Of a stretch of DNA of 64,000 nucleotides, positions 26,787-61,495 are shown one piece after another. The notes beneath the pieces were generated by a model. The model saw only the letters and a program-made list of their open reading frames with translations. It had not been told where the DNA came from and did no database searches. Source of the stretch: an uncultured Piscirickettsiaceae bacterium (lineage in GTDB: Bacteria; Pseudomonadota; Gammaproteobacteria; GCF-002020875). Position 1 is the stretch's first letter. Each line of letters starts with the position of its first letter. The position numbers and the translations under genes are program-made. The stretch lies in contig CAYFMF010000003.1 in NCBI GenBank assembly GCA_964344135.1, positions 442 through 64,441 on the forward strand, in the 5' to 3' direction.

Positions 26787-28070
26787 TTGGATATTAACAA
26801 CTTTGAAGCCTATTGTGATCAGTTTGATCGCGCTGTCAACGAGCTGGGGATCGAAGAGAATCTGGCCGAACTGCTGAAACACCCTGACCGTGAACTCCTC
26901 GTGGAACTCCCGCTGGTTCGGGATGATGGCTCCCTGATGGTCCTCCACGGCTATCGGGTTCAACACAACAATGCCCGTGGCCCCTTCAAGGGGGGGCTGC
27001 GTTTTCATGAGTGTGTCGATCTGGACGAGGTGCGTGCCCTCTCAGCACTGATGACCTTCAAGACCGCCCTGGTCGATATCCCCTATGGTGGTGGCAAGGG
27101 GGGGATCCAGGTGGACCCCAAGAAGCTCTCCTCACATGAACTGGAGCAGCTGACTCGAACCTTTGTCCGCGCCATCAGTCCGGTGATCGGGGTCCATACC
27201 GACATCCCGGCACCCGATGTAAACACCAATGCCCAGATCATGGCCTGGTTCATGGATGAATACAGTCAGCTTCACGGCTACAGCCCCGGAATTGTCACCG
27301 GAAAGCCGCTCAATCTCGGAGGCTCGAAGGGAAGAAATGCCGCTACCGGATATGGAGTCTCCATCGTGCTGCGTGAGGTTGCCGAGTACCGCAACATGGA
27401 GCTGAAGGGTGCAACAGTTGTAATCCAGGGATTTGGCAATGTGGGGAGCTGGGCTGCCAAATACCTTGATGAATTTGGCTGCAAGATCATTGCAGTCAGT
27501 GACAGCAAGGGGGCCATTATCGATAACAGTGGGCTCGATATTACGGCACTGATTGAATACAAGCAGACACATGGGACCATCCAGGGTTTTGGAAACAGTC
27601 ACTCCATCGATGCCGAAACACTTCTCTATACACCCTGCGACTTTCTGGTCCCGGCGGCACTGGGTGGCGTGATCCACAAAAAGAACGCCAATAATCTGCG
27701 CTGCAAGATCGTGATCGAGGCAGCCAACGGCCCCACCACCCCAACCGCTGACACGATTTTATGGAGCAAGAACATTCCTGTGGTTCCCGACATCCTGACC
27801 AATGCGGGTGGTGTGATCGCCTCCTACTACGAATGGGTCCAGAACCTGCAGCGCCACTACTGGGAGGAGGAAGAGGTCAACAGCAAGATGGAGAAGAAAC
27901 TGACCAGCGCCTTCTGTGAGGTTGCCGCACTCGCCCACTCCAAAAGGGAGCTCTCCTATCGTACTGCCGCCTTTATGCTGGCAATTAAACGGGTAACCGA
28001 TACCACAACGATTCGTGGACGACTCGGCTCTCCCTGCGCCATCACCCCTGATCTGCCCCAAGACACTTAA
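26787..28070 (+). CDS. gdhA: Glu/Leu/Phe/Val dehydrogenase family, most likely glutamate dehydrogenase
   Basis: 427 aa. KGGLRFH...PYGGGKGG catalytic motif and C-terminal Rossmann domain GFGNVGSWAA. Confidence 0.8.
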   Translation: MDINNFEAYCDQFDRAVNELGIEENLAELLKHPDRELLVELPLVRDDGSLMVLHGYRVQHNNARGPFKGGLRFHECVDLDEVRALSALMTFKTALVDIPYGGGKGGIQVDPKKLSSHELEQLTRTFVRAISPVIGVHTDIPAPDVNTNAQIMAWFMDEYSQLHGYSPGIVTGKPLNLGGSKGRNAATGYGVSIVLREVAEYRNMELKGATVVIQGFGNVGSWAAKYLDEFGCKIIAVSDSKGAIIDNSGLDITALIEYKQTHGTIQGFGNSHSIDAETLLYTPCDFLVPAALGGVIHKKNANNLRCKIVIEAANGPTTPTADTILWSKNIPVVPDILTNAGGVIASYYEWVQNLQRHYWEEEEVNSKMEKKLTSAFCEVAALAHSKRELSYRTAAFMLAIKRVTDTTTIRGRLGSPCAITPDLPQDT

Positions 28071-28476
28071 TCCCGGACACCTCCCAGAAATCTGGCCCAT
28101 AATCGATAAAGATCTCCTCTCCGGGACGGATCCTCTTCAGTGCCTCGATCCGTGCCTTTTTCCAACGTGTTGAGACCACAAACTGTGCATTGGGTTTTGC
28201 CGAATGGTTTACATAGCGGGTGTAATTCTCCCCCACAATCAGACAGTCCCGACAGACCCAGAGCAGATAGTGTGAATCAATATAGGGGCTGCGTTCCGAC
28301 TGGGCATCGGTGATGATCTTCCCCAGATAGGGGCCGATGGTATCCCCTCTCTGGAGCGTCACAAGCGAAAAGAGCCCCTCTCCACACCCACTGATTGTGG
28401 ATGGAGCCACCTCAAAGTGGTGCTCCTCAAACTGTCTCGATTGTCCCATTCTCCACCCGATCTCCTCTCGCCCCAA
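28042..28476 (-). CDS. SET-domain protein (putative protein-lysine N-methyltransferase)
   Basis: 144 aa. GCGEGLFS, RYVNHSAKPNAQF and GEEIFIDYG match SET-domain motifs (GxG, NHS/RxxNH, ELxxDY). Convergent 29-bp overlap with the gdh 3' end. Confidence 0.65.
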   Translation of the reverse strand: MGREEIGWRMGQSRQFEEHHFEVAPSTISGCGEGLFSLVTLQRGDTIGPYLGKIITDAQSERSPYIDSHYLLWVCRDCLIVGENYTRYVNHSAKPNAQFVVSTRWKKARIEALKRIRPGEEIFIDYGPDFWEVSGIKCLGADQG

Positions 28477-28589
28477 ACAGCCGACAAGACACTATTCAAG
28501 CGCTCAATTGAATTGTATTTCAGCCAATTTCATGTTAATATAGCAGAAATTGATGCACCATATTTAAACTCCAAACCCAAGAGGTTTTC

Positions 28590-29339
28590 ATGAAAAAACT
28601 GAATCTTGTAATGCGTACAGCTGCTGGCGCCCTGATAGCCAGCAGCATGGCGATGCCGGTCGCTGCAGAAGAGGCTGCCACTGGGCAGGTTGCTGAACAA
28701 CAGGCAGCGGCTGCCACACAGCAGGCTGAGCCACGCAAGCGCCGTCCACAGAGCCGCCCCCCCATGCCCTATGGCCCTGGGATGACACCCCCTTATGGCA
28801 TGATGCCTCCGGGCATGGCTCCCTATGGCCCTGGCCCCTACGGGATGGCACCTCCACAGGGTTTTGGCCCCTATGGCCCTCCCGGCATGAGCCCCTACGG
28901 CCCACCAATGGGCTATGCGCCCCCCGGCTACGGGCCTGGCGGCTACAATGCCCCCGGTTTCAACCCCTCATTCAACCCACCCACCATGGAGCCACCCTGG
29001 GGGAATGACAAGAACTTTGACATGAGCCCGATGAAATTCTGGCCGGTTCCCGGAACAGGAAACCCCTGGCACTACAAGCCATGGGAGCCCGGTGCCCCCT
29101 GGGGTGATTCCGACAAGTTCTCCGATCCACCCGATGAGGCCTTCCACGAGGCGGAGGATTTCCTCGCCGACGCCCCAAGAATGCCTGGTGGCTGGGAGCT
29201 GCCCAACATCTCCATGCCAAGCCCCTTCGAGATCGGAGAGCAGGTTGGAGACCAGAGCTGGCTGCTGCCGGAAAACTTCAAGATGCGTGACCGCAATCGT
29301 CCCAAGCGCTACCGGAAGTACTTCCAGAACGAGCAGTAA
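28590..29339 (+). CDS. Secreted low-complexity Pro/Gly/Tyr/Met-rich repeat protein
   Basis: 249 aa. Signal peptide MKKLNLVMRTAAGALIASSMAMPVAA, then reiterated PYGPG/PPGM units (PYGPGMTPPYGMMPPGMAPYGPGPYGMAPP...). Good RBS, genome-typical GC3. Confidence 0.55.
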   Translation: MKKLNLVMRTAAGALIASSMAMPVAAEEAATGQVAEQQAAAATQQAEPRKRRPQSRPPMPYGPGMTPPYGMMPPGMAPYGPGPYGMAPPQGFGPYGPPGMSPYGPPMGYAPPGYGPGGYNAPGFNPSFNPPTMEPPWGNDKNFDMSPMKFWPVPGTGNPWHYKPWEPGAPWGDSDKFSDPPDEAFHEAEDFLADAPRMPGGWELPNISMPSPFEIGEQVGDQSWLLPENFKMRDRNRPKRYRKYFQNEQ

Positions 29340-29350
29340 CAACGCTACCG

Positions 29351-29521
29351 ATGGGAGGCTGGGGCTGCCCGCATGATGCCAACGGCATCTGCCTGAAGGT
29401 ACCGAAGACCCGCTGCGATCCGGGGATGAAGGGGTGCGTTCTGGCCGGCCGCTTCCGCTTCAGCAAGGAGCAGAAGAACCGCCCCGGTGGCCCCAAAAAG
29501 CGCAGCTACGAGACAGAGTAG
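29351..29521 (+). CDS. Candidate 56-aa Cys4 mini-protein (not in the ORF track because it is under 60 aa)
   Basis: MGGWGCPHDANGICLKVPKTRCDPGMKGCVLAGRFRFSKEQKNRPGGPKKRSYETE. Lies 12 nt after the upstream stop and immediately before a strong intrinsic terminator. Four Cys and a basic tail. Confidence 0.3.
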   Translation: MGGWGCPHDANGICLKVPKTRCDPGMKGCVLAGRFRFSKEQKNRPGGPKKRSYETE

Positions 29522-29545
29522 CCGCTCTCGACCTGCCCATAGAGA

Positions 29546-29575
29546 AGAGCCCTCAACTGAGGGCTCTTTTTTTTG
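29546..29575 (+). terminator. Rho-independent terminator
   Basis: agagccctc-aact-gagggctct followed by TTTTTTTT. Confidence 0.7.
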
Positions 29576-29763
29576 TTCAGATCAGGTGTTCCGGTGGGCC
29601 CGCATTGACGGTGCATCCGGATGATTTATGTCAAATACATTTATGCAAACCGGCAGGAAGATCACTATTCGAGGACAAACACTCTTGTTGAGAAGGCAGT
29701 GGTTAGATGCTACGGTTAACAACAAGATACAGCACGGCACCCCATTGGGAGGGGGGAACAACA

Positions 29764-30354
29764 ATGAACATACTAATCGCTGACGATCACTACCTCTATC
29801 TGCAGGGGCTGCGCCTGCTACTCAATGGGCAGCACAAGAAGCTGCGCTACCATGAGGCCAGGGATCTCGCCTCTGTGCTGGATCAGCTGGGCCACCACCC
29901 CATTGAGCTGCTGCTGCTCGATCTGCGGATGCCCGACATGGAGGGGTTTGACGGGGTCTACCAGATCCGTGAGCGCTACCCTGAGCTGCCGATTGTGATC
30001 ATTACCAGCTCAGAGAGCCGCACCGATGTCCAGGCTGCAATCAATGCCGGGGTTCAGGGGTATATCCTCAAGTCACTGGATCACAAGGCGATGACCGATG
30101 CGCTCAATGAGGTGGTTGCCGGCAACCCGTTCTTCCCCGACCTCAGTCAGCCACTCTCTGGCCCACTGGAGAATCTGACCAATCGGCAGCTGGAGATCCT
30201 GCACCTGATCAATGACGGGATGGGGAATCGTGAGATTGGCAAGCGGCTGGGGATTACCGAAGGGACCGTGGGGCAGCATGTTCACGCCCTGCTCAGCGCA
30301 CTGAAGGTAAAAAACCGTTCCGAGGCGGCGCGCATCCTTCGTGAGTATGAGTAG
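29764..30354 (+). CDS. NarL/LuxR-family response regulator (REC domain plus LuxR helix-turn-helix)
   Basis: MNILIADDHYLYLQGL...LLLDLRMPDMEGF receiver domain. C-terminal NRQLEILHLINDGMGNREIGKRLGITEGTV LuxR helix-turn-helix motif. Confidence 0.85.
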   Translation: MNILIADDHYLYLQGLRLLLNGQHKKLRYHEARDLASVLDQLGHHPIELLLLDLRMPDMEGFDGVYQIRERYPELPIVIITSSESRTDVQAAINAGVQGYILKSLDHKAMTDALNEVVAGNPFFPDLSQPLSGPLENLTNRQLEILHLINDGMGNREIGKRLGITEGTVGQHVHALLSALKVKNRSEAARILREYE

Positions 30355-30982
30355 CACCCACCCGCACCACGCACTGGGGCAGTTTCTCTCCACAGCAATT
30401 CACGACATCAAGCAGCCGCTCAATGTGCTACAGATGTATCTGGGGATCCTGCAGGAGCAGGCCGGCCTCCCAAAGGGGGACGAATTGACCCAGATCGCAA
30501 ATGGCTCCCTGAAATCACTACAGTCAATGCTCAACCTGCTCAGCAACTGGGCGCGTGCTGATGAAGGGGGACTCAGGATCCAGCCAGAGTGGGTAACGCC
30601 ATCAACATGGTCTCAACATCTCGAGAAGCAGGAGTGGCTCTCCCACCCCCTCCCGGCAGTGGATCTCTCTGCTGAGGAGACTCATCGGTCGATCGATCTT
30701 GCCCTGCTCACCCAGACCCTGCGCGACATCCTGACCCTGCTCCCCAGGGGGACAGCCATCACCGCAACCCCCACCCCATGGAGCCTTGAACTCCAGCTCA
30801 CCCCGCCACTACAGCGTGGCAGTGATGGTGAGCTTCTGTTTAGCGATGCCCTGCATCAACTGGCAGTGGATGGCGGAGGCGCCGTCCTGAAGGCGCTCGG
30901 CTTTCAGCAGCGGCTGGTAGAGCGTGATGGGGCGGTTGTGATTGCCATTCAGGGGGCGGAGAGTATGGTTGCTGCGCCATGA
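30341..30982 (+). CDS. HisKA (DHp) domain protein lacking recognisable ATPase boxes
   Basis: 213 aa. H-box AIHDIKQPLNVLQMYLGIL, but no N/G1/G2 motifs. Overlaps the regulator gene by 14 bp and the downstream kinase gene by 4 bp. Confidence 0.5.
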   Translation: MSMSSTHPHHALGQFLSTAIHDIKQPLNVLQMYLGILQEQAGLPKGDELTQIANGSLKSLQSMLNLLSNWARADEGGLRIQPEWVTPSTWSQHLEKQEWLSHPLPAVDLSAEETHRSIDLALLTQTLRDILTLLPRGTAITATPTPWSLELQLTPPLQRGSDGELLFSDALHQLAVDGGGAVLKALGFQQRLVERDGAVVIAIQGAESMVAAP

Positions 30983-33261
30983 TCGAGCTGACCAGAGCGT
31001 GGTTGTTCCGAGTTGCCACCCTGTTACTGCTCGCCTTTGGAGCCGGGGCCACCCATGCCGAGGAGGAGCTGGTTCCGGTCAGGCTGCAGCTGAACTGGTT
31101 CCACCAGTTTGAGTTTGCCGGCTTCTATGCGGCGCTGGAGCAGGGCTACTACCGTGATGCGGGGCTGGATGTAACGATCATCCCCGCCACCTTCACGACA
31201 GTTGCCGCCGATGAGCTGACCAGTGGAAATGCCGACTATGCGGTGGGCTACGCGGGCACCATGCTGAAGAAGGCCGCCGGGCAGCCCATTGTCGCCCTCA
31301 AGTCCATCCTTCAGTACTCCCCCTACGCCCTGATGGTACGTGCCGACTCCGCAATCCAGCAACCCGCGGATCTGCGACACAAGCGAATCATGATGCCCCC
31401 CAACCCCAACGCCTCGGAACTGTTTGCGATGCTGCAGGAACATGGTATTAAGCCAAACCAGATTCTGCGCATGGACCACAGCCACAAGCTTGAGGATCTC
31501 ATCTCAGGCAAGGCGGATGCCATCAGCATCTACACCACCAACGAGCCCTTCCGCCTCAGAGAGATGGGGTTTGAGCCACGCATCTTTGACCCCCGGGACA
31601 GCGGAGTGGACTTTTATGGTGACATTCTGATCACAACCGAACAGAAGATCCAGGAGCGCCCAGAGGAGGTACAGCGCTTTGCCGAGGCGACCATGATGGG
31701 ATGGGAGTATGCATCCACCCACCCCACAGAGCTGATCCAGACCATTGTTGAGCACTACAACGGAAAAGAACAGGGAGGGCTGGAAAAAAGTTTTGATGCA
31801 CTCCAGTTTGAGGCGACCGAGATTATCAAAAGGGTCTCTCCCATTCTGATCGATATCGGCCATATGAGTCGCAAACGGTGGCAGAGGTCGCTGTTGACCT
31901 ATCTGGATCAGGGGATGGTGAATCAGCGGTACCGGGACCCCGCTGAACAGGAGCGGTTACTGGATGAGTTTCTCTACACCCCCCCGATCGCAATCACCCT
32001 GCCCCATCTGCTCACCCACTATCGCACCGAGGCCACCATTGTATCCGTGATACTTGTCATCATCAGCGGGCTCATCCTCCTCTACCTTATTCAGTTGAGG
32101 AGGACGGTGGAGGCAACCCTCAACAAGGAGGAGTTCATGGCGAGAATGAGCCATGAGATTCGAACCCCGATGAATGGCATCATGGGGGTGCTGGAGTTGC
32201 TGCGGCTGACCCCGCTCAACCGGGAACAGCAGGATCACCTCAATACCATGCAGAGCTCGGGGACAAGGCTGTTGACCATCATCAACGGGATTCTCGACCT
32301 CTCCAAGATTGAGGCGGGAAAGATCAACCTTGAATCAACCCCATTTGACCTCTTCCGGGTTCTGCAGGAGATTGACGACCTGATCTCCCCACTGGCTCAC
32401 AACAAGGGGGTCAGACTCACACTGGCCAATGACCCCCAACTGCCACAGTGGGTGAAGGGAGACCCGACCCGCCTGCAGCAGATTCTGCTCAATCTGACCG
32501 GCAACGGAATCAAGTTTACCTCCCATGGTGGAGTGACTCTACACACTACACTGGTTGAGAGCAGTCAGGGGCAGGCCCTCATTGAGTTCACTGTCGAGGA
32601 TAGCGGAATCGGCATCAGCGATGAGGCGCAACACCATATCTTTGAGCAGTTCACCCAGGCCAGCGCTGAGACGACCCGTCACCACGGTGGGACTGGACTG
32701 GGGCTGACCATCTCCCAGCAGCTGGTTCAGAAGATGGGCAGCACCATCGTGCTCTCCAGTACTCCGGGAGAGGGAAGCCGCTTCAGCTTCAGGCTCGATC
32801 TGGAGATCGCCACCCCACCGCAGGGGCCGGAGGAGAGTCGGTCCGCAAGAACTGCCCTGGATCCAGCACTGCTCCCCTGCGCTGTACTGCTGGTTGAGGA
32901 CAATGAGACCAACCGGATTGTGGCCCAGAAACTGCTGGAACACATTGGCTGCGAGGTGGAGAATGCAGAGAATGGGGAGGTTGCCCTCAACCGGGTCGTC
33001 GGGCGCAACACCCCCTACGATCTGATCCTGATGGATCTGAACATGCCACTGATGGATGGGGTGGAGGCAGCCCGCCGTATCCGGGGGGGCGGAATCGAAA
33101 CCCCCATTGTTGCACTGACCGCAGAGATCCAGTCCGATGGCAGGCGCTGCCATGAGGCGGGGATTGATGACCTGCTCTACAAGCCATTCTCCATGAGTGA
33201 TCTCGTTGAGAAGATCAACCAGTGGGTCGGAGCTGAGAGCAAGCCCTCACAGAAACAATAA
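30979..33261 (+). CDS. Hybrid sensor histidine kinase/response regulator with a periplasmic SBP-like (NMT1/SsuA-TauA-type) sensor domain
   Basis: 760 aa. Signal/TM, SBP-like domain (LQLNWFHQFEFAGFY...), TM, H-box SHEIRTPMNGI, N-box LNLTGNGIKFT, G1 DSGIGI, G2 GGTGLGLTIS, C-terminal REC domain (LLVEDNETN...DLILMDLNMP). Confidence 0.85.
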   Translation: MIELTRAWLFRVATLLLLAFGAGATHAEEELVPVRLQLNWFHQFEFAGFYAALEQGYYRDAGLDVTIIPATFTTVAADELTSGNADYAVGYAGTMLKKAAGQPIVALKSILQYSPYALMVRADSAIQQPADLRHKRIMMPPNPNASELFAMLQEHGIKPNQILRMDHSHKLEDLISGKADAISIYTTNEPFRLREMGFEPRIFDPRDSGVDFYGDILITTEQKIQERPEEVQRFAEATMMGWEYASTHPTELIQTIVEHYNGKEQGGLEKSFDALQFEATEIIKRVSPILIDIGHMSRKRWQRSLLTYLDQGMVNQRYRDPAEQERLLDEFLYTPPIAITLPHLLTHYRTEATIVSVILVIISGLILLYLIQLRRTVEATLNKEEFMARMSHEIRTPMNGIMGVLELLRLTPLNREQQDHLNTMQSSGTRLLTIINGILDLSKIEAGKINLESTPFDLFRVLQEIDDLISPLAHNKGVRLTLANDPQLPQWVKGDPTRLQQILLNLTGNGIKFTSHGGVTLHTTLVESSQGQALIEFTVEDSGIGISDEAQHHIFEQFTQASAETTRHHGGTGLGLTISQQLVQKMGSTIVLSSTPGEGSRFSFRLDLEIATPPQGPEESRSARTALDPALLPCAVLLVEDNETNRIVAQKLLEHIGCEVENAENGEVALNRVVGRNTPYDLILMDLNMPLMDGVEAARRIRGGGIETPIVALTAEIQSDGRRCHEAGIDDLLYKPFSMSDLVEKINQWVGAESKPSQKQ

Positions 33262-33297: not shown

Positions 33298-33849
33298 TTA
33301 TCTCCAGTAGGGAGGCGGTGCCATCATTGGCGGCATGGCCGGTGCAAATGGCGGCTGTCCACCACCCATCCCCATAGGGGCAGGTCCATAGGGGTAGGGA
33401 GCCGGACCATAACCATAAGGGGCCGGTGGAGCTCCATAGTATTGTGGAGCATAGTAGTTATCCCCGTAGTAGCGGTTCTCTCCACGACTGCGGCCACGTC
33501 CCTTGTACTTCTTCTCTCCGCTTCCCCTGCCCTCGCCATGAGCCTCGCCCTTGAGCTTGGTGTCGAGATTGAGATCCCACTCCACATCGGTATTGAGGTC
33601 GCTCATTGCATCTCCCATCCCCATGCTGTCCATCATCGAATCGACGGCACCCCAGCCGTGCTCCCCACCAAACGGGCCACGCTTATCATTACTACCCCAG
33701 CCAAAGGGGGCCATGGGGTGGTCAGAACGGTCTCCCCAGTCACTCCAGCCATCCTGCATATCCCAATCTTTCGGGTTCCAGAAGGCCGAGGCACCGCTTG
33801 AGAGCGCCATTGCTGTTGCAGCCACAACGATTTTTACCATGTATTTCAT
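33298..33849 (-). CDS. Secreted low-complexity Gly/Pro/Tyr/Met/Trp-rich protein
   Basis: 183 aa. Signal peptide MKYMVKIVVAATAMALSSGASA; WGDRSDHPMAPFGWG, MMDSMGMGDAM, YYGDNYYAPQYYGAPPAPYGYGPAPYPYGPAPMGMGGG. Compositional paralogue of the 28590..29339 protein. Confidence 0.5.
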   Translation of the reverse strand: MKYMVKIVVAATAMALSSGASAFWNPKDWDMQDGWSDWGDRSDHPMAPFGWGSNDKRGPFGGEHGWGAVDSMMDSMGMGDAMSDLNTDVEWDLNLDTKLKGEAHGEGRGSGEKKYKGRGRSRGENRYYGDNYYAPQYYGAPPAPYGYGPAPYPYGPAPMGMGGGQPPFAPAMPPMMAPPPYWR

Positions 33850-33940
33850 AATTCAGACTCAAACCAGGGTTGGATTAATCAACCGTTTCAGTAAATGCTT
33901 TAATTGTACCCTCTTTTACCCCTTTAATCAAGCAATAATG

Positions 33941-34008
33941 GGGGTCAGGTCTTTCATTTTGCATTGGTGGCAAGGTGGCCCACCAATGTAAAATGAAAGA
34001 CCTGACCC
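33941..34008 (+). repeat. Near-perfect 30-bp inverted repeat (long hairpin) with an 8-nt loop
   Basis: ggggtcaggtctttcattttgcattggtgg-caaggtgg-ccaccaatgtaaaatgaaagacctgacccc. The single mismatch is a G-U wobble only on the + strand transcript. Confidence 0.7.
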
Positions 34009-34020
34009 CCCCCATAACAG

Positions 34021-34725
34021 TTATATCGGCAGCAGCACCATGCTGGCAAGGGAGTGTACCACCCCCGTCAGCTGACGGTTGGTCTGGTCAGCAATCAGGA
34101 TCGCAATCAGGTCCTGGTTTGCGGCCGCCCGGCTGATCTGGTTACTGACCTGCTGGCCGTTCTGCAGCAGCAGGGGTCTCCTTCCCTCCACCCCTGCCTG
34201 CTCAACCATCCTCAATGCGGTCTCGAAATTTCGGGCGGTATTGTAGATCTTCTGCGGGTCGAGCTGATCGAGCATATAGAGCTCAGTGGTGCCGTTATAG
34301 GAGCGCATGGTCATTGAGACCAGTGCTGCGGTAAAGAGCAGCACCCGATCCCCCTGGTAGCTCTCATCAAAGGCGAGATGGAGCAGGTTGTTGCCCCGTG
34401 CGCGCCCAAACTCCGGGAAGTTCCAGCGAATCCGTTGGCCGAAAACCCGCTTCACATTGGCCTCTATGGATGGGTATTGGGCCCGCTCCAGCTGCTGCGG
34501 ATTGGCGGCGTAGAGCTCTGCCATCATCATCCGCAGTGACCTCAACACCTCACGCTGCCCCAGCTCGGCGGCACGGCTGAGGTCCGATTTTGCCAGCATG
34601 CGGACGTCGTAACTGCCGGCATCGGAGTGGATCTTCTTGTAGCGCTCAGGGTTGGTGACACAGCCACTCCCCATCAACAGGGTGGCAGCAAGGCAGAGGA
34701 GGACAGACAACCGCGAGCAACTCAT
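34021..34725 (-). CDS. Hypothetical secreted protein or lipoprotein
   Basis: 234 aa. Leader MSCSRLSVLLCLAATLLMGSGC (Cys after the leader suggests a lipobox). No recognisable catalytic motif. Confidence 0.45.
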   Translation of the reverse strand: MSCSRLSVLLCLAATLLMGSGCVTNPERYKKIHSDAGSYDVRMLAKSDLSRAAELGQREVLRSLRMMMAELYAANPQQLERAQYPSIEANVKRVFGQRIRWNFPEFGRARGNNLLHLAFDESYQGDRVLLFTAALVSMTMRSYNGTTELYMLDQLDPQKIYNTARNFETALRMVEQAGVEGRRPLLLQNGQQVSNQISRAAANQDLIAILIADQTNRQLTGVVHSLASMVLLPI

Positions 34726-51513: not shown

Positions 51514-51739
51514 GTCTACTTCTCGATTCAGTGGTTGATGGTTGGAGGCTCCGGAAGTCCACTTCCGCTGAGCCGTGAAAGCGGCCTATTGTAGTACAGC
51601 AGTGGATAAATAACTATCTCCAGGAGCCTGTCGGATTTATGGGTGCCACGGCAAAAAAGCCCTGACGCAGTGACAGATTCATGAGTAGAATTGAGTTCTT
51701 GATCATGGAAGCATATCGAACCGACATGGAGAAGAAGCA

Positions 51740-53692
51740 GTGAGCAGCGAAGAGACCGGAACCACAAAAGTCTATCCCGTCAACAGTGCGTTTGCCGCAC
51801 AGGCCAATGTTACTGCAGAGCAGTACGAGGAGATGTACCAGCACTCCATTACCGACCCCGAGGGGTTCTGGAGCGAACAGGCCACCCGCTACCTCACCTG
51901 GTTCACTCCATGGGAGACCACCCTGGATTGGAGCTACAGCGGTGATGTACACATCAACTGGTTCAGGGGTGGAAAACTGAATGCCTCCTACAACTGTCTC
52001 GATCGCCACCTTGAGGAGCGTGGGGATCAGGTCGCCATCCTCTGGGAGGGGGATGACCCCAACGAGGATCGCAGCATCACCTACCGGGAGCTCCACGCTG
52101 AGGTGAGCCGGTTCGCCAACGTACTGAAGTCTCGTGGGGTCAACAGGGGGGATCGGGTCTCCATCTATATGCCGATGATCCCGGAGGCGGCTGTCGCAAT
52201 GCTCGCCTGCACCCGTATCGGTGCGGTCCACTCCGTGGTCTTTGGCGGCTTCTCCCCCGATGCACTGCGTGACCGTATCCTGGACTCCGACTGTCAGGTG
52301 GTGATCACCGCCGACCAGAGCATTCGCGGAGGCAAGAAGGTTCCCCTGAAGCAGAATGCAGACCAGGCGATCGCCTCCTGCCCCAACGTGCACACCTGCA
52401 TTGTGGTGCAGCGGGGTGGAGAGCCTGTCGACTGGAGCGAGGAGCGAGATCTCTGGTACCACAAGGCAATGGAGAGCGCCTCTGCGGAGTGCCCTCCCGA
52501 AGAGATGGATGCCGAGGATCCGATGTTTATCCTCTACACCTCCGGATCCACCGGAAAGCCGAAGGGGGTACAGCACACCACCGGTGGCTATATGCTCCAC
52601 GCCGCAATCACCCACAAACTCACCTTCGACTACAAGGATGGGGAGATCTACTGGTGTACCGCCGATGTGGGATGGGTCACCGGACACACCTATATTCTCT
52701 ATGGCCCACTCGCCAATGGTGCCACCACCATGATGTTCGAGGGGATCCCCACCTACCCCACCACCTCCCGCTTCTGGGAGGTCTGTGACAAGCACAGTGT
52801 TGCCAGCTTCTACACCGCACCCACCGCAATCCGTGCCCTGATGTCCAGTGGTAACGAACCGGTAGAGAGGACCTCGCGCAAATCCCTGCGCCTGCTGGGA
52901 ACGGTCGGCGAACCGATCAACCCCGAGGCATGGGAGTGGTACTACAATGTTGTCGGTGACGGACGCTGTCCGATTGTAGACACCTGGTGGCAGACCGAGA
53001 CTGGTGGACACCTGATCACCCCACTCCCTGGTGCCCACCCGCTGAAACCGGGCTCTGCCAGCCGCCCCTTCTTCGGAGTACAGCCGGTGCTGCTGGATGA
53101 TGAGGGGAACGAACTGGAGGGGACAACCTCCGGCAATCTGGCGATGAAGTTCCCGTGGCCCGGACAGATGCGTACCCTCTATGGTGATCACGACCGCTTT
53201 ATCGAAACCTACTTTACCCAGTTCCCCGGCTACTACTTCACAGGAGATGGGGCACGCCGCGACGAGGATGGGTACTGGTGGATCACCGGCCGTGTAGACG
53301 ATGTACTCAATGTCTCCGGACACCGTCTGGGAACAGCCGAGATTGAGTCTGCCCTGGTGCTGCATGAGATGGTCGCAGAGGCGGCTGTGGTCGGTTATCC
53401 CCATGAGATCACTGGCCAGGGGATCTACGCCTTCGTCACCCTGATGCAGGGTGAGACAGCAACCGATGCCCTGAAGAGTGACCTCGTAGCACTGGTGCGC
53501 AAGGAGATTGGCCCCATTGCCAGGATCAACATCATCCAGTGGGCGCCCGGCCTGCCCAAAACCCGCTCTGGAAAGATCATGCGCCGCATCCTGCGCAAGA
53601 TTGCCGCCAATGAGCTGGATGACCTGGGTGATACCTCAACCCTGGCCGACCCCAGCGTAGTTGAGGAACTGATTGAGAACCGAAAGTATTGA
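51740..53692 (+). CDS. acs: Acetyl-coenzyme A synthetase
   Basis: 650 aa. AMP-binding motif [11 protein letters not shown], conserved acylation-site Lys near the C-terminus (SGKIMRR). Confidence 0.95.
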
Positions 53693-53940: not shown

Positions 53941-54612
53941 ATGCTCGTAAAAATTACTGTTCTGTCACTGGCAGCTCTTCTTTCACCCATTGCCGGCGCC
54001 TGGGATGGTCTGGACCGTGGAGGCGAGATTGAGGAGTCAATGACACTCACTCCCGACATTGAGAACGGAAAAAAACTCTATAAAACCTGTGCCTTCTGTC
54101 ACACACCGGATGGGTGGGGCATGGAGCCCGGAATCGGTAAATACCGGGTTCCGGGAACCTATCCACAACTGGCGGGCCAACACCAGTCGGTACTGATCAA
54201 GCAGCTCTACGATATCCGTCAGCTCAATCGGGACAACCCCACCATGTACCCCTTTACACTGGCCCGCTATATTGGAGGTGCCCAGGATGTTGCCGATGTA
54301 ACCGCCTACATCACCACCCTCTCCATCAACCACTTCAATCAGCATGGGGATGGATCTGATCTGGCGCTTGGAAAAGAGCTCTACGAGGAGAACTGCGTCA
54401 AGTGTCACGGGGAGAATGGTGAGGGAGATACTGAAAACTTCTACCCGCGCCTCTCCAACCAGCACTACCCCTATATGCTGAGACAGTTTGTCTGGATCAA
54501 GGATGGAAAGCGCAGAAACGCCAACAGCAAGATGGTCAAACAGATCCAGAGATTTACCTATCGCGACATGAAGGCGGTCATTGACTATGCCTCCAGACTG
54601 GATGCCCAGTAA
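53941..54612 (+). CDS. Periplasmic diheme cytochrome c (c4-like)
   Basis: 223 aa. Signal peptide, two CxxCH motifs (CAFCH, CVKCH) in two cytochrome-c domains with Met ligand regions. Confidence 0.75.
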   Translation: MLVKITVLSLAALLSPIAGAWDGLDRGGEIEESMTLTPDIENGKKLYKTCAFCHTPDGWGMEPGIGKYRVPGTYPQLAGQHQSVLIKQLYDIRQLNRDNPTMYPFTLARYIGGAQDVADVTAYITTLSINHFNQHGDGSDLALGKELYEENCVKCHGENGEGDTENFYPRLSNQHYPYMLRQFVWIKDGKRRNANSKMVKQIQRFTYRDMKAVIDYASRLDAQ

Positions 54613-54673
54613 CCTGCCTGTAGAAGAATAAAACACAACAACAGTCATAGAGCCTCTAGAGGGAGAGACCTAG

Positions 54674-55378
54674 ATGAAAAAACTACTGATTCCAGCCCTG
54701 ATCTTTATTGCCGGCATGGTGGCACTTGGGGGCGTCAATGTCTTCTTTGCCGCTACCAACGAGATGGAGTTCTGTACCTCCTGCCACTCGATGAAGATCA
54801 ACCTCGAGGAGTATCGCCACACCGTCCACTACGAGAATCAGTCCGGTGTTCAGGCCACCTGCTCGGACTGTCATGTACCCAAACAGTTCATCCCCAAGGT
54901 AATGGCCAAGATCATGGCGGCCAAGGATGTATACCACTGGGTCATGGGCACCATTGAGCCTGATGAGTCCCAACTGGTTTCAGCGGACAGCAGTGGCAAC
55001 TGTCCCGACCTCTTTATCCCTGTTGAGGAGGGCTCCAACCTCTGCGTCCCCAATTATGGGGATCCCTATAGCGAGGATGAGATGAGCGAGGAGGCTGAGG
55101 CGCGTCGTGAGGCGGCACTGGAGAAATACAATGCCTACCGCTGGAAGATGGCCAACAGTGTCTGGGACAAGATGAAGGCCACGGATTCACGTGAATGCAG
55201 AAACTGTCACTCCTTCGACAACATGAACCTCGACGAGCAGGACCGCAGTGCACGCAAGAAGCATGGTCGTGCCACCGACAAGGGTCAGACCTGTATCGAC
55301 TGCCACAAGGGGATAGCCCATGCCGAGCCGGATGAACCTGATGATGAAGAGGAAGAGGAAGAGGATGAAGAGGCATAG
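54674..55378 (+). CDS. NapC/NirT-family membrane-anchored tetraheme cytochrome c (quinol dehydrogenase type) with an acidic C-terminal tail
   Basis: 234 aa. N-terminal TM. Four CxxCH motifs (CTSCH, CSDCH, CRNCH, CIDCH). Tail DEPDDEEEEEEDEEA. Confidence 0.8.
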   Translation: MKKLLIPALIFIAGMVALGGVNVFFAATNEMEFCTSCHSMKINLEEYRHTVHYENQSGVQATCSDCHVPKQFIPKVMAKIMAAKDVYHWVMGTIEPDESQLVSADSSGNCPDLFIPVEEGSNLCVPNYGDPYSEDEMSEEAEARREAALEKYNAYRWKMANSVWDKMKATDSRECRNCHSFDNMNLDEQDRSARKKHGRATDKGQTCIDCHKGIAHAEPDEPDDEEEEEEDEEA

Positions 55379-55408
55379 CCCAGCCCACTGGATGCCGGCC
55401 TATCGGAA

Positions 55409-56365
55409 ATGAATCGGAGCAGTATCATGAAAACAATAACCACCATCGTACTATCCCTCCTCTTCTCCAGTGCCTGCCTCGCTGATGCCGCACTGGACCA
55501 GTCACTGCGCAGGGCTGTGATCAATGGGGAGCTTGCTGAGGTTAAACAGCTGATCAGCCAGGGTGCTGATATCAACAGTAGTGGAGAGTTTGGCCACACC
55601 CCACTGATCTATGCGGCCGAGGATGGTCAGATTGAGATTGCCCAGCTGCTGATTGAACATGGTGCCCGTATCGACCGGCAGACCAGGGGAGGATACACCG
55701 CCCTCTCCGCCGCTGCCGATGAAAGCAGCATTGCCCTGGTCTCCCTGCTCCTGAAGGCTGGAGCCGACCCACATATCAAGACCCGTAATGGAATGGATGC
55801 GCTGATGATTGCGGTCCGCAGCGGAGATGCAGATGTGATCTCGATGCTGATGGCCTATAACAGCAACATCAACACCGCAAACCGCCATGGACAGACCCCG
55901 TTGATGATCGCCTCCCAGAGCGGCAATATCGATGTGGTCCATATGATGTTGCTGGCTGATGCCGGCATGAACATCCGTGACAAGAATGGCAGAACCGCCC
56001 TGATGATCGCCGCAGACACCCAGAGCCTGGAGGTGGTAACCGCCCTGCTGAATCGTGGGGCCTTAACCTCGGTGACGGATGATCATGGTGCCACCGCCCT
56101 GCACTATGCAATCAAGCGCAAGGGAAGCGCCATTGCAGAGACCCTTCTCAACCGTGGCGCCAATGTCAATGTGGCAGATAACGACAGCTGGACCCCGTTA
56201 ATGGATGCGGTCAGCCGTGGAAACAGCAAACTGGCAAAACTGCTGATACAGCGAGGTGCCGATGTAGAGGTCCATGATCAGGAAGGCCACAGCCTCCCCC
56301 AGATCGCCGAGATGAACCGCCGCCACCAGCTGGCTGAATATCTTCAGGGGCTTATCAAGCGCTAG
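55409..56365 (+). CDS. Periplasmic ankyrin-repeat protein
   Basis: 318 aa. Signal peptide (start may be the MKTITTIVLSLLFSSACLA methionine at about 55427). About 8 tandem 33-residue ANK repeats (GxTPLxxAA...GADxN). Confidence 0.8.
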   Translation: MNRSSIMKTITTIVLSLLFSSACLADAALDQSLRRAVINGELAEVKQLISQGADINSSGEFGHTPLIYAAEDGQIEIAQLLIEHGARIDRQTRGGYTALSAAADESSIALVSLLLKAGADPHIKTRNGMDALMIAVRSGDADVISMLMAYNSNINTANRHGQTPLMIASQSGNIDVVHMMLLADAGMNIRDKNGRTALMIAADTQSLEVVTALLNRGALTSVTDDHGATALHYAIKRKGSAIAETLLNRGANVNVADNDSWTPLMDAVSRGNSKLAKLLIQRGADVEVHDQEGHSLPQIAEMNRRHQLAEYLQGLIKR

Positions 56366-56600
56366 CCGGTTACGGTAGCACCAACACCAAACCAATGCCG
56401 GATAACCTACAGAGCACTCCACCATGGAGAGAGCTCCTGTAGCTTAACGGCACAGAACCCACTGACGGGATTGGTGGCTCCGAAGCATGCGGGTTACTCG
56501 ATCACGAGCACCGTTCTCCAACAATATTGAGTACTTGATCTAGAGACCTAACTCGAATAAGGTACTGTTTCTGGTTATTCATGTTCAGGGGGAGAGGTAT

Positions 56601-57218
56601 ATGAGAAAGGTACTGCTTGGCACAATATTAACAACCATTCTGGCATCGCCGGTAACCATGGTTACAGCCGCAGAGGAGGCCGCTGCGGAGAAGGCTGCTG
56701 TAGCAGAGGATATCTCTGTCCACGTTCAAGAGAGTCGTGCTCTGGCCAAGAAGCTGTTTGTCAAACTGAAACATGCGCTGGTTACGGGGATGAAGGCGGG
56801 AGGCCCCTCTACGGCAATCACCGCCTGTAACGTACAGGCGCAGCCCATTACCCGTGCAGCATCCAACCGCCGTACCGGGCTCAATATTCGTCGCACCAGT
56901 CTGCGCCTGCGCAATCCAAAGAATGCCCCCGATGCCTGGGAGATTCGGGTTCTGGAACAGTTTGAGGGGCGCTTTGCCGCAGGTGAGGATCCCAGCAAGG
57001 TGGAGTACCACGAGGTGGTGGAACAGAAAGGTGGCGAACGACTCTTCCGTTACATGAAAGCGATCCCGGCCAGCAAGCCCTGCATGGTCTGTCATGGCGA
57101 GCTGATTGCACCGGATGTACTGAAGACCATTCGGGATCTCTATCCCTATGAGCAGGCAACCGGCTTCAAGCCGGGAGATCTTCGTGGTGCCTTCTCGGTC
57201 ACCAGAGAGCTCGATTGA
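56601..57218 (+). CDS. DUF3365/Tll0287-like periplasmic heme-c protein
   Basis: 205 aa. Signal peptide, PAS-like body, single C-terminal CxxCH (CMVCHG), as in Tll0287-family proteins. Confidence 0.55.
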   Translation: MRKVLLGTILTTILASPVTMVTAAEEAAAEKAAVAEDISVHVQESRALAKKLFVKLKHALVTGMKAGGPSTAITACNVQAQPITRAASNRRTGLNIRRTSLRLRNPKNAPDAWEIRVLEQFEGRFAAGEDPSKVEYHEVVEQKGGERLFRYMKAIPASKPCMVCHGELIAPDVLKTIRDLYPYEQATGFKPGDLRGAFSVTRELD

Positions 57219-57285
57219 TGTTGTAGTCCATTCAACAATAAGTTAAGAGCACCATGCCTGTGGAGGCGGGAATGGTGCGCTGTCG

Positions 57286-59283: not shown

Positions 59284-59292
59284 CAGCAGCCT

Positions 59293-59331
59293 CCCCTTAT
59301 ATATGCGGCCATAGCCGTCATATATAAGGGG
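59293..59331 (+). terminator. Strong GC-clamped hairpin downstream of the CbcL-like gene
   Basis: ccccttatatatg-cggccatagccg-catatataagggg: 13-bp stem. Weak or absent U-tract. Confidence 0.45.
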
Positions 59332-59510
59332 GGGGTGAACTGCCTCCTGCGCAAATTATTTCCTTGCATCAGAAGTTTTATTTGAATTATTATAGGAGTG
59401 TTCTGCGCGGGGGGCTGCCGGACTGATTAACCATCTATTTGACTCCTCCCGAATAGAGCAAAATTAATATTAATTTTAAATAAAATCTCTAAATAACTTT
59501 AGGAGGAGAT

Positions 59511-60107
59511 ATGAAAGCAACGAAACTTGCAGTAGCCGTTCTCGGCAGCTGTGCAATCAGTTTCTCTGCGTTCGCAGGAAACATGACAGGGGCTGACGGA
59601 TCCATGCTCGCCAACACCTGTGCTGGTTGTCACGGCACAGACGGAGCCAGCGTTGGTCCAGCCATCCCATCCATTGGTGGAATGTCTGCAACCTACATCA
59701 CCGACATGATGGCAGCATACAAGTCTGGTGATACCAACAGCACCATCATGGGCCGTATCGCAAAGGGCTACAGTGAGGATGAGGTTGGTGCGATCGCCAA
59801 CTTCTTCGCCGATCAGCCACAGTCCCGTGCAGACCAGTCCTTTGACAGTGCCAAGGTCGCCAAGGGGCAGAAGCTGCATGACAAGTACTGTGAGAAGTGT
59901 CACTCTGAGGGTGGCGCACTGGCAGATGACGATTCCGGCATTCTCGCTGGGCAGCTGATGCCTTATCTTGAGTACAGTATGGAGGATTTCCACAATGGTG
60001 ATCGCTCTATGCCGAAGAAGATGAAGAAGAAGGTCAAGAAGCTGAACAAGAAGGAAGGCGACGCTGGTGTTGACGCTATCTTCCACTACTACGCAAGCCA
60101 GCGCTAA
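59511..60107 (+). CDS. fccA: Flavocytochrome c sulfide dehydrogenase, diheme cytochrome subunit
   Basis: 198 aa. Signal peptide, two CxxCH motifs (CAGCHG, CEKCHS). Immediately upstream of fccB. Contains a Lys-rich insertion PKKMKKKVKKLNKKEG. Confidence 0.75.
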   Translation: MKATKLAVAVLGSCAISFSAFAGNMTGADGSMLANTCAGCHGTDGASVGPAIPSIGGMSATYITDMMAAYKSGDTNSTIMGRIAKGYSEDEVGAIANFFADQPQSRADQSFDSAKVAKGQKLHDKYCEKCHSEGGALADDDSGILAGQLMPYLEYSMEDFHNGDRSMPKKMKKKVKKLNKKEGDAGVDAIFHYYASQR

Positions 60108-60122
60108 GGAGGAGCTATAACA

Positions 60123-61451: not shown

Positions 61452-61495
61452 AGCAGTAGAGGCGTTGTCTTAACAAGCAACGCTGGAAAAAGAGA

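What the first reader, a model, noticed from the sequence alone, without database searches (positions are those of the whole stretch)
28590..29339. Secreted PYGP/PPGM repeat protein 1
249-aa ORF with a classical Sec signal peptide followed by about 100 residues of degenerate P-Y-G-P-G-M repeats and a C-terminal acidic/aromatic domain (WHYKPWEPGAPWGD). There is a strong RBS and its own promoter-like AT-rich upstream region. Resembles structural extracellular proteins rather than enzymes.
Basis: seen in the sequence. Interest (0 to 1): 0.55.

Follow-up and report, generated by a model that had tools for sequence, protein, structure and literature searches.

The report
Secreted repeat protein with ultra-conserved tail
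This is a real gene for an exported, apparently unstructured protein whose variable proline-tyrosine-glycine-methionine region is joined to an almost invariant tryptophan/proline-rich tail; it belongs to an undescribed protein family of uncultured marine bacteria, its function is untested, and my best guess is a coat or scaffold protein.

Summary
Window 28590..29339 (+) is a 249-aa ORF with a signal-peptide-like N-terminus. It has a 68-residue uncharged stretch that is 85% P/G/Y/M, and a Trp/Pro/acidic C-terminal region ending in a basic tail.

It is a genuine gene. Orthologues occur in 14 species-level MAGs, labelled uncultured Piscirickettsiaceae, Methylophaga, Thiotrichales or Gammaproteobacteria. 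The signal peptide and repeat region diverge freely in sequence and length. The last ~125 residues are 90-100% identical, with dN/dS 0.01-0.05 at near-saturated synonymous sites.

No Pfam, NCBIfam or PDB match exists. AlphaFold gives no confident fold (pLDDT ~49). It does not match the sulphur-globule-protein family PF17228, although a second secreted PYG-rich gene (33298..33849, -) does so weakly.

Profile and metagenome searches found a wider unannotated family. Members share a signal peptide, a long Pro/Tyr-rich low-complexity region and a ~45-residue 'MPGGW' acidic core. Many of these genes sit directly downstream of lipase or phospholipase genes.

Best reading (inferred, about 0.4): a non-enzymatic exported coat or scaffold protein that self-associates through its repeats and docks through its tail onto a hydrophobic or lipid interface. 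In this sulphide oxidiser that could be the sulphur-globule envelope.

Novel family, untested function, moderate interest.

The parts
28494..28513 (.). 20-bp palindrome ATTCAAGCGCTCAATTGAAT (consensus ATTCAAT-N6-ATTGAAT). It is centred about 45 nt upstream of the inferred transcription start and is a candidate activator site.
   Evidence: Conserved 93-121 nt upstream of the orthologous start codon in 12 of 15 orthologous loci checked (267 nt in L010; absent in L012 and L014/L034). Unique in the 64-kb window. The binding protein is unknown.
28513..28541 (+). Inferred promoter: weak -35 TTGTAT (28513-28518), 17-nt spacer, extended -10 TGtTAATAT (28533-28541).
   Evidence: Read. The TGnTAnnnT block is conserved in the orthologue alignment. 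The consensus scan did not report it, so this is inferred, not shown.
28579..28584 (+). Ribosome-binding site AAGAGG, 5 nt before the ATG.
   Evidence: AGAGGTTTTCATG conserved in orthologues.
28590..29339 (+). Complete coding sequence of the 249-aa protein, stop codon included.
   Evidence: gene callers in public assemblies call the same ORF.
28590..28667 (+). Residues 1-26: Sec-type signal peptide (MKK, hydrophobic stretch, VAA|EE).
   Evidence: An equivalent segment with an AxA-type site is present in all 14 genome orthologues. There is no lipobox and no twin-arginine motif. Heuristic only.
28668..28757 (+). Residues 27-56: Ala/Gln-rich variable spacer ending in PRKRRPQSR.
   Evidence: Not conserved between orthologues.
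28758..28961 (+). Residues 57-124: uncharged P/G/Y/M low-complexity region with degenerate PYG(P/M) units.
   Evidence: 85% P+G+Y+M, 0 charged residues, entropy 2.53 bits. Length and sequence vary between orthologues (the region before the conserved tail is 88-136 aa in the full-length homologues). No DNA tandem repeat.
28962..29114 (+). Residues 125-175: Trp/Pro module (NPSFNPP...WPVPGTGNPWHYKPWEPGAPWGDS). Specific to this subfamily and nearly invariant.
29115..29276 (+). Residues 176-229: acidic 'MPGGW' core (DEAFHEAEDFLADAPRMPGGWELPNISMPSPFEIGEQVGDQSWLLPEN). This is the only part shared with the wider family.
   Evidence: Family consensus: W-D-D-M-x-x-x-P-x(4)-G-x-MPGGW-x-AP-x-V-x-x-PNP-x-D-x-GD-Q...D-L-P.
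29277..29336 (+). Residues 230-249: basic/aromatic tail FKMRDRNRPKRYRKYFQNEQ (net charge +6).
   Evidence: Conserved within the subfamily and absent from the distant relatives.
29351..29521 (+). 56-aa four-cysteine ORF (MGGWGCPH..C..CDPGMKGCVLAGRFRF) with no signal peptide, probably co-transcribed with the main gene.
   Evidence: Found just downstream (separation from nil to about 140 nt) in 12 of 14 genome loci. Its own family is wider and occurs in unrelated contexts, so linkage is probably positional rather than functional.
29541..29576 (+). Intrinsic terminator (14-bp stem plus T-run) closing the two-gene unit.
   Evidence: -28.2 kcal/mol, z = -5.2 against shuffles.

Best explanation
The ORF is a real, strongly selected gene for a Sec-exported protein with two parts, and it probably has no stable fold on its own.

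Part one (mature residues ~27-124) is a fast-evolving spacer. Its uncharged Pro/Gly/Tyr/Met repeats are conserved in composition but not in sequence.

Part two (residues 125-249) is a near-invariant module with three pieces: a Trp/Pro-rich segment, an acidic ~45-residue 'MPGGW' core, and a basic/aromatic tail. The core places the protein in a previously undescribed family of secreted low-complexity proteins from marine Gammaproteobacteria.

Proposed mechanism (inferred, not shown):
1. After signal-peptide cleavage, the uncharged repeat region self-associates, as elastomer-like or coat-forming proteins do.
2. The conserved module docks the protein onto a conserved partner or a hydrophobic/lipid interface. 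Trp/Pro and basic-aromatic segments are typical interfacial binders.
3. In this sulphide-oxidising organism the most plausible target is the envelope of periplasmic sulphur globules, alongside the neighbouring SGP-like protein. An inner face of a membrane is the alternative.

It is not an enzyme.
For: Shown:
- The ORF and its features are present.
- There are 19 homologues and 14 genome loci.
- A signal-peptide-like N-terminus is present in all 14 loci.
- The repeat region varies while the last ~125 aa are near-invariant.
- dN/dS is 0.01-0.05 with dS 0.27-3.5, so the constraint is on the protein, not the DNA.
- For comparison, glutamate dehydrogenase in the same loci is only 72-85% identical to the window copy.
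- There is no enzyme or known domain.
- AlphaFold gives pLDDT 49 with essentially no secondary structure, and only weak helices in a second run.
- The wider family shares the architecture of signal peptide, Pro/Tyr-rich low-complexity region, Trp/basic segment and acidic core. This is seen in 39 non-redundant metagenomic proteins.

Context:
- The window encodes flavocytochrome c sulphide dehydrogenase and a SoxA/TsdA-like cytochrome.
- A second secreted PYG/Met-rich protein lies 4 kb away, or directly adjacent in L002 and L009. It shows a weak PF17228 sulphur-globule-protein match and shares the YGPxPYG unit.
- In L009 the same palindrome precedes both genes.
- Distant relatives lie directly downstream of a class-3 lipase (23 loci) or a patatin phospholipase (3 loci). 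This points to a lipid or hydrophobic interface.
- Known sulphur globule proteins are Sec-exported structural proteins, and sgpD lies beside a two-component regulator (PMC10386293).
Against: - There is no direct evidence of location, expression or binding.
- The protein and all 19 homologues fail to match PF17228 even at E <= 10.
- It shows no homology to the neighbouring SGP-like protein beyond an 8-residue compositional match.
- That neighbour's PF17228 hit is below Pfam's threshold (20.7 against 26.7 bits), and its orthologues do not hit.
- The mature protein (223 aa, GRAVY -1.04) is larger and more hydrophilic than the 'extremely hydrophobic' 11-13 kDa SgpA-C (PMC10386293).
- No sulphur gene is consistently adjacent, either in orthologous loci or next to the distant relatives.
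- Whether these bacteria form sulphur globules at all is unknown.
- The alignments given to AlphaFold were shallow and nearly invariant in the tail. Lack of a predicted fold is therefore weak evidence of disorder.
- Near-invariance is unusual for a truly disordered region.
Confidence: 0.4

Rival explanations
1. Extracellular or cell-surface matrix protein or adhesin. After Sec export it is passed outward, for example by type II secretion. The sticky Pro/Tyr-rich region then acts as biofilm matrix, adhesive or emulsifier on particles or hydrophobic substrates, with the conserved tail anchoring it to the cell surface.
For: - The Pro/Tyr/Gly composition recalls adhesive and cell-wall proteins (established knowledge; an analogy only).
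- In the distant relatives the gene lies between a secreted class-3 lipase and a GGDEF/EAL c-di-GMP protein in about 20 loci. c-di-GMP genes are commonly linked to matrix production.
- In the P0018 lineage the gene is flanked by chemoreceptor-like genes (read from the sequences, not scanned).
Against: - No secretion-system genes, sorting signal or C-terminal transmembrane anchor is present.
- Several host MAGs come from the water column (titles).
- The lipase/GGDEF synteny is absent from the subfamily that contains this gene.
Confidence: 0.2
2. Periplasmic soft-metal (Cu(I)/Ag(I)) buffer or oxidant sink, analogous to the disordered Met-rich proteins SilE and PcoE. Methionine thioethers and the two invariant histidines would bind metal, and the protein would fold on binding.
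For: - Met makes up 7.2% of the protein and 9-16% of the repeat region.
- There are invariant Met133/148/198/209 and His161/186, with an M-x-x-M at residues 145-148.
- The protein is predicted to be disordered.
- A two-component system lies next to the gene in this window.
- The neighbouring PYG2 protein contains MMDSMGMGDAMSD.
Against: - Met in the repeats is not conserved. The most divergent orthologue has 1 Met in its region before the conserved tail, and several others have 3-6.
- Most distant relatives replace Met with Asn/Gln/Arg.
- There are no cop/cus/sil/pco genes nearby, and the regulator is NarL/LuxR-type rather than CusR/OmpR-type.
- There is no Pfam match to any metal-binding family.
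- Near-invariance of many non-ligand residues (Trp, Pro, Phe, Gly) is not explained by this model.
Confidence: 0.1
3. Dedicated partner of another exported protein, as a scaffold, steric chaperone or inhibitor. The invariant tail would be a docking surface for one conserved enzyme, much as lipase-specific foldases are encoded beside their lipase, and the low-complexity region would be a spacer.
For: - Extreme conservation of a module with no predicted fold is typical of regions that fold on a partner (inference).
- Relatives sit 12-177 nt downstream of, and co-directional with, two unrelated lipid hydrolase families. This holds over wide divergence, since the lipases are only 48-59% identical to the L040 lipase used as query.
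Against: - No lipase or other constant exported neighbour occurs in the 20 loci of this subfamily or in the window.
- There is no match to the lipase-chaperone family or any other Pfam family.
- The only frequent partner, the small Cys protein, lacks a signal peptide and occurs independently elsewhere.
Confidence: 0.12
4. Not a functional gene: a chance ORF, the shadow of an antisense gene, or a decaying pseudogene.
For: Long antisense ORFs exist at 28588..28908 and 28968..29342. Low-complexity sequence can arise spuriously.
Against: - The frame, signal peptide, RBS and stop codon are conserved in 14 species-level genomes.
- dN/dS is 0.01-0.05 at saturated synonymous sites in the + frame.
- The gene is called identically in 22 public contigs.
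Confidence: 0.01

Closest known systems
Sulphur globule proteins SgpA/SgpB/SgpC (Pfam PF17228, SGP) and SgpD of Allochromatium vinosum
   Same: Both are Sec signal-peptide-bearing, cysteine-free, non-enzymatic proteins with Gly/Tyr(/Pro)-rich degenerate repeats. Both are encoded in a sulphide oxidiser, and gene number and sequence vary between species. A two-component regulator is adjacent here, as it is for sgpD (PMC10386293). The YGPxPYG unit is shared with the neighbouring weakly SGP-like protein.
   Different: There is no HMM match to PF17228 for this protein or any homologue. The mature protein is about twice as long and hydrophilic overall. It carries a 125-residue near-invariant Trp/Pro/acidic/basic module that described SGPs are not reported to have. 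Location on globules is untested.
SilE / PcoE periplasmic Met/His-rich metal-binding proteins
   Same: Both are small, periplasmic, Met-rich, predicted to be disordered, and encoded near a two-component system.
   Different: There are no repeated MxxH/HxxM motifs and no metal-resistance gene context. Met in the repeats is not conserved across the family. There is no sequence match.
Eukaryotic elastomeric and matrix proteins (spider MaSp2 GPGGY/GPGQQ, resilin, abductin, amelogenin). This is an analogy recalled from general knowledge, not homology.
   Same: They share uncharged Pro/Gly/Tyr(/Met/Gln) degenerate repeats. Like amelogenin, this protein has a short, conserved, charged C-terminal segment after a Pro/Met/Gln-rich body.
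   Different: The origins are unrelated and no sequence similarity was tested or expected. Self-assembly of this protein has not been shown.
Periplasm-spanning proteins with Pro-rich linkers (TonB, FtsN) and lipase-specific foldases
   Same: All have an N-terminal hydrophobic segment, a Pro-rich variable linker and a conserved C-terminal module. Relatives of this protein are encoded beside lipases.
   Different: Here the N-terminus looks like a cleavable signal peptide (short hydrophobic region and an AxA site in all orthologues) rather than an anchor. There is no Pfam match to TonB_C, SPOR or Lipase_chap.

Membership tests
Sulphur globule protein family (Pfam PF17228 SGP) | Significant match to the family HMM | tested here: not met
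   No hit for the window protein at E <= 0.01. None of 20 family members hit at E <= 10. NCBIfam also finds nothing.
Sulphur globule protein family (Pfam PF17228 SGP) | Sec-dependent signal peptide giving periplasmic targeting | tested here: met
   A basic/hydrophobic/AxA N-terminus is present in the window protein and all 14 genome orthologues. This is a heuristic; SignalP was not available.
Sulphur globule protein family (Pfam PF17228 SGP) | Small (about 11-13 kDa), extremely hydrophobic structural protein with Gly/aromatic repeats | tested here: not met
   The mature protein is 24.6 kDa with GRAVY -1.04. Only residues 57-124 are uncharged Gly/Tyr/Pro/Met repeats. The reference description is in PMC10386293.
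Sulphur globule protein family (Pfam PF17228 SGP) | Physical location on sulphur globules, and a host that forms globules | not testable with these tools
   The window encodes FccAB and a SoxA/TsdA-like cytochrome, so the host oxidises sulphide. Globule formation and protein location are unknown.
SilE/PcoE-type periplasmic metal-binding proteins | Repeated, conserved Met/His metal-binding motifs and a metal-resistance gene neighbourhood | tested here: not met
   Met counts in the region before the conserved tail range from 1 to 14 across the homologues. No cop/cus/sil/pco genes are nearby. There is no Pfam hit.
TonB/FtsN-like periplasm-spanning anchored proteins | Retained N-terminal transmembrane anchor plus a recognised C-terminal domain (TonB_C, SPOR) | tested here: not met
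   The hydrophobic regions are 12-18 residues long and are followed by AxA sites. There is no Pfam domain.
Lipase-specific foldase (Lif, Pfam Lipase_chap) | HMM match, and a gene adjacent to its cognate lipase | tested here: not met
   No Pfam hit in this protein or in 8 diverse relatives. There is no lipase in the window or in loci of this subfamily.
   The profile search hit P0020 and P0021 at E = 6e-5 and 2e-4 against 1.84 billion proteins. 47 metagenomic relatives were confirmed by tblastn at E <= 1e-3, but that E-value is relative to pattern-selected candidates only. Alignments are, and the architecture tally is. The window protein is a divergent branch: DFL for DDM, PSP for PNP, with an added Trp/Pro module and basic tail.

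The most novel reading that the evidence does not exclude
The 'MPGGW-core' proteins would be a new class of bacterial extracytoplasmic, intrinsically disordered matrix proteins, functionally comparable to amelogenin or phasins. A composition-driven, self-associating low-complexity body would form a coat or condensate. An ultra-conserved Trp/Pro/acidic module, lacking an autonomous fold, would organise a hydrophobic inclusion or interface. That interface would be sulphur globules in this lineage and lipid substrates of the adjacent lipases in others.
Probability: 0.2. Interest if true: 0.7.

Novelty: new variant of a known kind. Interest (0 to 1): 0.45.

Why it matters
Little is known about how bacteria build and bound periplasmic inclusions such as sulphur globules. 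Only the few Sgp proteins of purple sulphur bacteria have been studied, and the abundant uncultured marine sulphur oxidisers have no characterised envelope components.

This gene offers a concrete, testable candidate. Independently of that, it is a striking case of a region with no predicted fold held nearly invariant (dN/dS about 0.02) across a family-level clade, while being fused to a freely evolving low-complexity region.

If the conserved module is a docking element for a hydrophobic interface or a partner enzyme, it would define a new protein family and could serve as a tag for targeting proteins to that structure. If the protein proves to be a generic periplasmic filler, the finding is only an annotated orphan family.

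Tried and rejected
- Pfam, NCBIfam and PDB sequence searches on the protein, its homologues and 8 distant relatives found nothing.
- Two AlphaFold runs, on the full-length alignment and on the C-terminal alignment with distant relatives, both gave pLDDT ~49. I therefore ran no fold search, because matches to such models are meaningless.
- Homology between this protein and the second PYG-rich protein was rejected: BLASTP E = 0.69, and hhalign aligned only 8 columns.
- No DNA-level tandem repeat was found.
- Rfam found only two tRNAs in the window and nothing near the gene.
- The consensus scan found no sigma-70 promoter at the gene. The promoter I describe is inferred from alignment.
- A search for further copies of the upstream palindrome in the window, as a possible regulon, found none.
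- I tested whether the small Cys-rich downstream ORF is a dedicated partner. It is not: its family occurs in Ectothiorhodospira, Sideroxydans and Candidatus Reidiella in unrelated contexts, and it is absent next to the gene in L014 and L039.
- The SET-domain neighbour as a functional partner remains unresolved. It is divergent and adjacent in most loci, but it is absent in L002 and L014 and distant in L012.
- Attempts to identify the organism or habitat failed. Cluster look-ups of housekeeping proteins gave no named relatives. Paper searches for the project accessions returned nothing.
- Two literature searches for comparable proteins were uninformative.
- tblastn with the window's FccA, FccB and SoxA-like proteins found no matches in the distant-relative loci.
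Full report
**1. The observation**

Window 28590..29339 (+) is an ATG-initiated 249-codon ORF. AAGAGG lies 5 nt upstream of the start.

The product divides into six segments:
- Residues 1-26: MKK, a 17-residue Ala/Ser-rich hydrophobic stretch, then VAA|EE.
- Residues 27-56: an Ala/Gln-rich spacer.
- Residues 57-124: 85% Pro+Gly+Tyr+Met, with no charged residue and six irregularly spaced P-[YF]-G units.
- Residues 125-175: a Trp/Pro-rich segment.
- Residues 176-229: an acidic segment (net charge -10).
- Residues 230-249: a basic/aromatic tail (net +6).

The protein has no cysteine. The repeat stretch is nearer 70 than 100 residues, and there is no DNA-level tandem repeat.

**2. It is a real gene under unusual selection**

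A search of 5.8 billion clustered proteins returned 19 homologues, none with a Pfam domain or an informative name. A scan of one genome per species returned 14 loci. All are MAGs labelled uncultured Piscirickettsiaceae, Methylophaga, Thiotrichales or Gammaproteobacteria.

In the alignment the N-terminal half is barely alignable and varies in length. From NPSFNPP to the C-terminus, about 90 positions are invariant.

Every one of the 14 genomic ORFs starts with a basic/hydrophobic/AxA segment, each spelled differently.

Codon analysis of the last 125 codons against 12 orthologues gives dS 0.27-3.5 (saturated in several pairs) and dN 0-0.047. dN/dS is therefore 0.01-0.05. Synonymous sites vary freely, so the constraint acts on the protein, not on DNA, RNA or an antisense frame.

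Glutamate dehydrogenase in the same loci is only 72-85% identical to the window copy, so this tail evolves more slowly than a core enzyme. The antisense ORFs are by-products.

**3. What it is not**

- Pfam and NCBIfam give nothing for the protein or for any of its 20 family members, even at E <= 10.
- A C-terminal profile finds nothing in the PDB.
- AlphaFold on the family alignment gives mean pLDDT 49 and almost no secondary structure.
- A second run on the C-terminal region with distant relatives gives pLDDT 50 and three weak helices.
- I did not run fold searches on such models.
- The alignments are shallow and nearly invariant, so absence of a predicted fold is only weak evidence of disorder.

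**4. A wider family**

A profile of the C-terminal region, scored against 1.84 billion representative proteins, hit only its own family plus two others (E = 6e-5 and 2e-4). Following those hits and scanning metagenome contigs with the joint alignment gave 47 further relatives.

The 39 non-redundant full-length relatives share one architecture:
- a signal-peptide-like N-terminus;
- 80-280 residues of low-complexity sequence, always rich in Pro (10-32%) with Tyr, plus Asn/Gln/Gly/Met/Arg depending on lineage;
- a Trp/basic segment (NNKFWGRSGPSxWMNPNK);
- a highly conserved acidic core, W-D-D-M-I-N-A-P-S-R-M-G-E-MPGGW-T-AP-E-V-x-M-PNP-I-D-M-GD-Q...D-L-P-E-Q.

Eight diverse members have no Pfam domain.

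The window protein belongs to a divergent branch. That branch keeps the core (residues ~176-229) and adds its own Trp/Pro module and basic tail. One branch (L081/L082/L086) has Met/Pro/Gly/Tyr-rich repeats very like those here.

**5. Surroundings**

The gene is followed 12 nt later by a 56-aa four-cysteine ORF, then by a strong intrinsic terminator (-28 kcal/mol, z = -5.2). The two genes probably form one transcript.

The small ORF follows the gene in 12 of 14 genome loci. However, its own family is broader, with 105 hits including Ectothiorhodospira, Thioalkalivibrio, Sideroxydans, Ferrigenium, Candidatus Reidiella and Magnetospirillum. In those genomes it sits in unrelated contexts. I therefore treat the linkage as positional.

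A SET-domain gene is divergently upstream in most loci, though not all.

The shared intergenic region holds a 20-bp palindrome, ATTCAAT-N6-ATTGAAT:
- It lies 93-121 nt before the start codon in 12 of 15 loci.
- It is unique in the window.
- It is centred about 45 nt upstream of the start inferred from a conserved extended -10 element.
- This is the geometry of an activator-dependent promoter, but that is an inference.

Downstream in this window lie a NarL/LuxR-type response regulator, a HisKA-only protein and a hybrid kinase with an NMT1-like periplasmic domain. After these comes a convergent gene on the minus strand, 33298..33849.

That gene encodes a second secreted protein with a conserved Trp/acidic/Met-rich N-domain and a variable PYG/Met-rich C-terminus. 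It hits the sulphur-globule-protein family PF17228 weakly (E = 7.6e-4, 20.7 bits, below the 26.7-bit threshold), and its orthologues do not hit.

In L002 the two-component genes are absent, so the two PYG genes are neighbours. In L009 the palindrome also precedes the second gene. The two proteins are not homologous; they share only a YGPxPYG unit.

Elsewhere the window encodes FccAB sulphide dehydrogenase, a SoxA/TsdA-type cytochrome and multihaem cytochromes. The host is therefore a sulphide oxidiser.

In the distant relatives, the gene lies directly downstream of a lipid hydrolase on the same strand:
- A class-3 lipase in 23 loci, whose lipases are only 48-59% identical to the L040 lipase used as query.
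- A patatin-like phospholipase in the Met/Pro/Gly-rich branch.
- No lipase lies near this gene or its close orthologues.

**6. Mechanism**

Shown:
- The gene is real.
- The N-terminus has the features of a cleavable Sec signal peptide, and these are conserved.
- Repeat composition is conserved, but repeat sequence is not.
- The tail is under extreme purifying selection.
- There is no recognisable enzyme domain.

Inferred:
- The mature protein is non-enzymatic.
- The uncharged PYGM region mediates self-association or acts as an elastic spacer.
- The invariant tail docks onto a conserved partner or interface. Its Trp/Pro segment and basic-aromatic tail resemble interfacial membrane binders. Separated acidic and basic blocks could also drive head-to-tail assembly.

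The hydrophobic-interface idea fits both contexts seen: a sulphide oxidiser with an SGP-like neighbour, and lipid hydrolase genes beside the relatives. I put this reading at about 0.4.

The rivals are:
- a surface matrix protein or adhesin (0.2);
- a dedicated partner or chaperone of another exported protein (0.12);
- a Met-rich metal buffer (0.1), weakened because Met is not conserved across the family;
- a non-gene (0.01), refuted.

**7. Comparison with known families**

The protein may work like a sulphur globule protein, but it is not a demonstrable member of that family. The HMM test fails, and size and hydropathy differ from SgpA-C as described in PMC10386293. It also fails the defining features of SilE/PcoE, TonB/FtsN-like anchored proteins and lipase foldases. 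It does meet the architecture and core motif of the unannotated 'MPGGW-core' family delineated here.

**8. Verdict**

The novelty is an unannotated family of secreted low-complexity proteins. In this branch a tail with no predicted fold is almost invariant. Function is unproven.

Interest is moderate at 0.45. The conservation pattern is unusual, and the gene is a concrete candidate envelope or scaffold component in uncultured marine sulphur oxidisers. Nothing here yet shows a new mechanism.

Noticed in passing
window 33298..33849 (-): A second secreted PYG/Met-rich protein (183 aa). It has a conserved Trp/acidic/Met-rich N-domain (FWNPKDWDM..GWG..DSMMDSMGMGDAMSD) and a variable PYG-rich C-terminus. 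It hits Pfam SGP (PF17228) weakly and below threshold. A TTGATT-17-TACAAT promoter lies upstream. Orthologues lie next to the finding's gene in L002, L009 and L032.
   Followed up: partly
window 29351..29521 (+): A 56-aa four-cysteine protein (GGWGCPH..C..CDPGMKGCVLAGRFRF, then a basic tail) with no Pfam or NCBIfam match. Its family has 105 members in sulphur- and iron-oxidising and other Proteobacteria (Ectothiorhodospira, Thioalkalivibrio, Sideroxydans, Ferrigenium, Candidatus Reidiella, Magnetospirillum). All are annotated as hypothetical, in varied contexts.
   Followed up: partly
window 28494..28513; also L009 9628..9647: A conserved 20-bp palindrome, ATTCAAT-N6-ATTGAAT, lies upstream of the gene in 12 of 15 loci. 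In L009 a second copy lies just upstream of the SGP-like gene. The binding factor is unknown. The adjacent LuxR-type response regulator is an untested candidate.
   Followed up: partly
L040-L086 (e.g. L040 1066..2037; L081 4363..5259): In the distant 'MPGGW-core' relatives, a class-3 lipase (23 loci) or a patatin-like phospholipase (3 loci) lies immediately upstream on the same strand. A GGDEF/EAL gene follows downstream in about 20 loci. L081 and L086 also carry a convergent DmsABC-type molybdoenzyme with no apparent Tat signal, resembling SoeABC.
   Followed up: partly
window 29707..33261 (+): A three-gene signalling unit: a NarL/LuxR-type response regulator, a 213-aa protein with only a HisKA domain (no ATPase domain), and a hybrid histidine kinase whose periplasmic part is an NMT1/THI5-like solute-binding domain. 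It is inserted between the two PYG genes in this lineage and is absent at that position in L002.
   Followed up: no
window 28042..28476 (-) and 55409..56365 (+): Two proteins with eukaryote-like domains. One is a SET-domain protein, divergently adjacent to the finding in most orthologous loci. The other is a 318-aa ankyrin-repeat protein.
   Followed up: no
window ~33940..34013: A long, near-perfect inverted repeat (about 74 nt) lies between the lipoprotein gene 34021..34725 (-) and the SGP-like gene. It is presumably a terminator or a repeat element.
   Followed up: no
window 53941..62957: A respiratory and sulphur cluster: dihaem cytochrome c, NapC/NirT-type tetrahaem cytochrome, a Tll0287-like protein, a multihaem cytochrome fused to cytochrome b, FccA/FccB sulphide dehydrogenase and a SoxA/TsdA-like cytochrome. 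In addition, the 596-aa ORF 51614..53404 (-) has no Pfam match.
   Followed up: no
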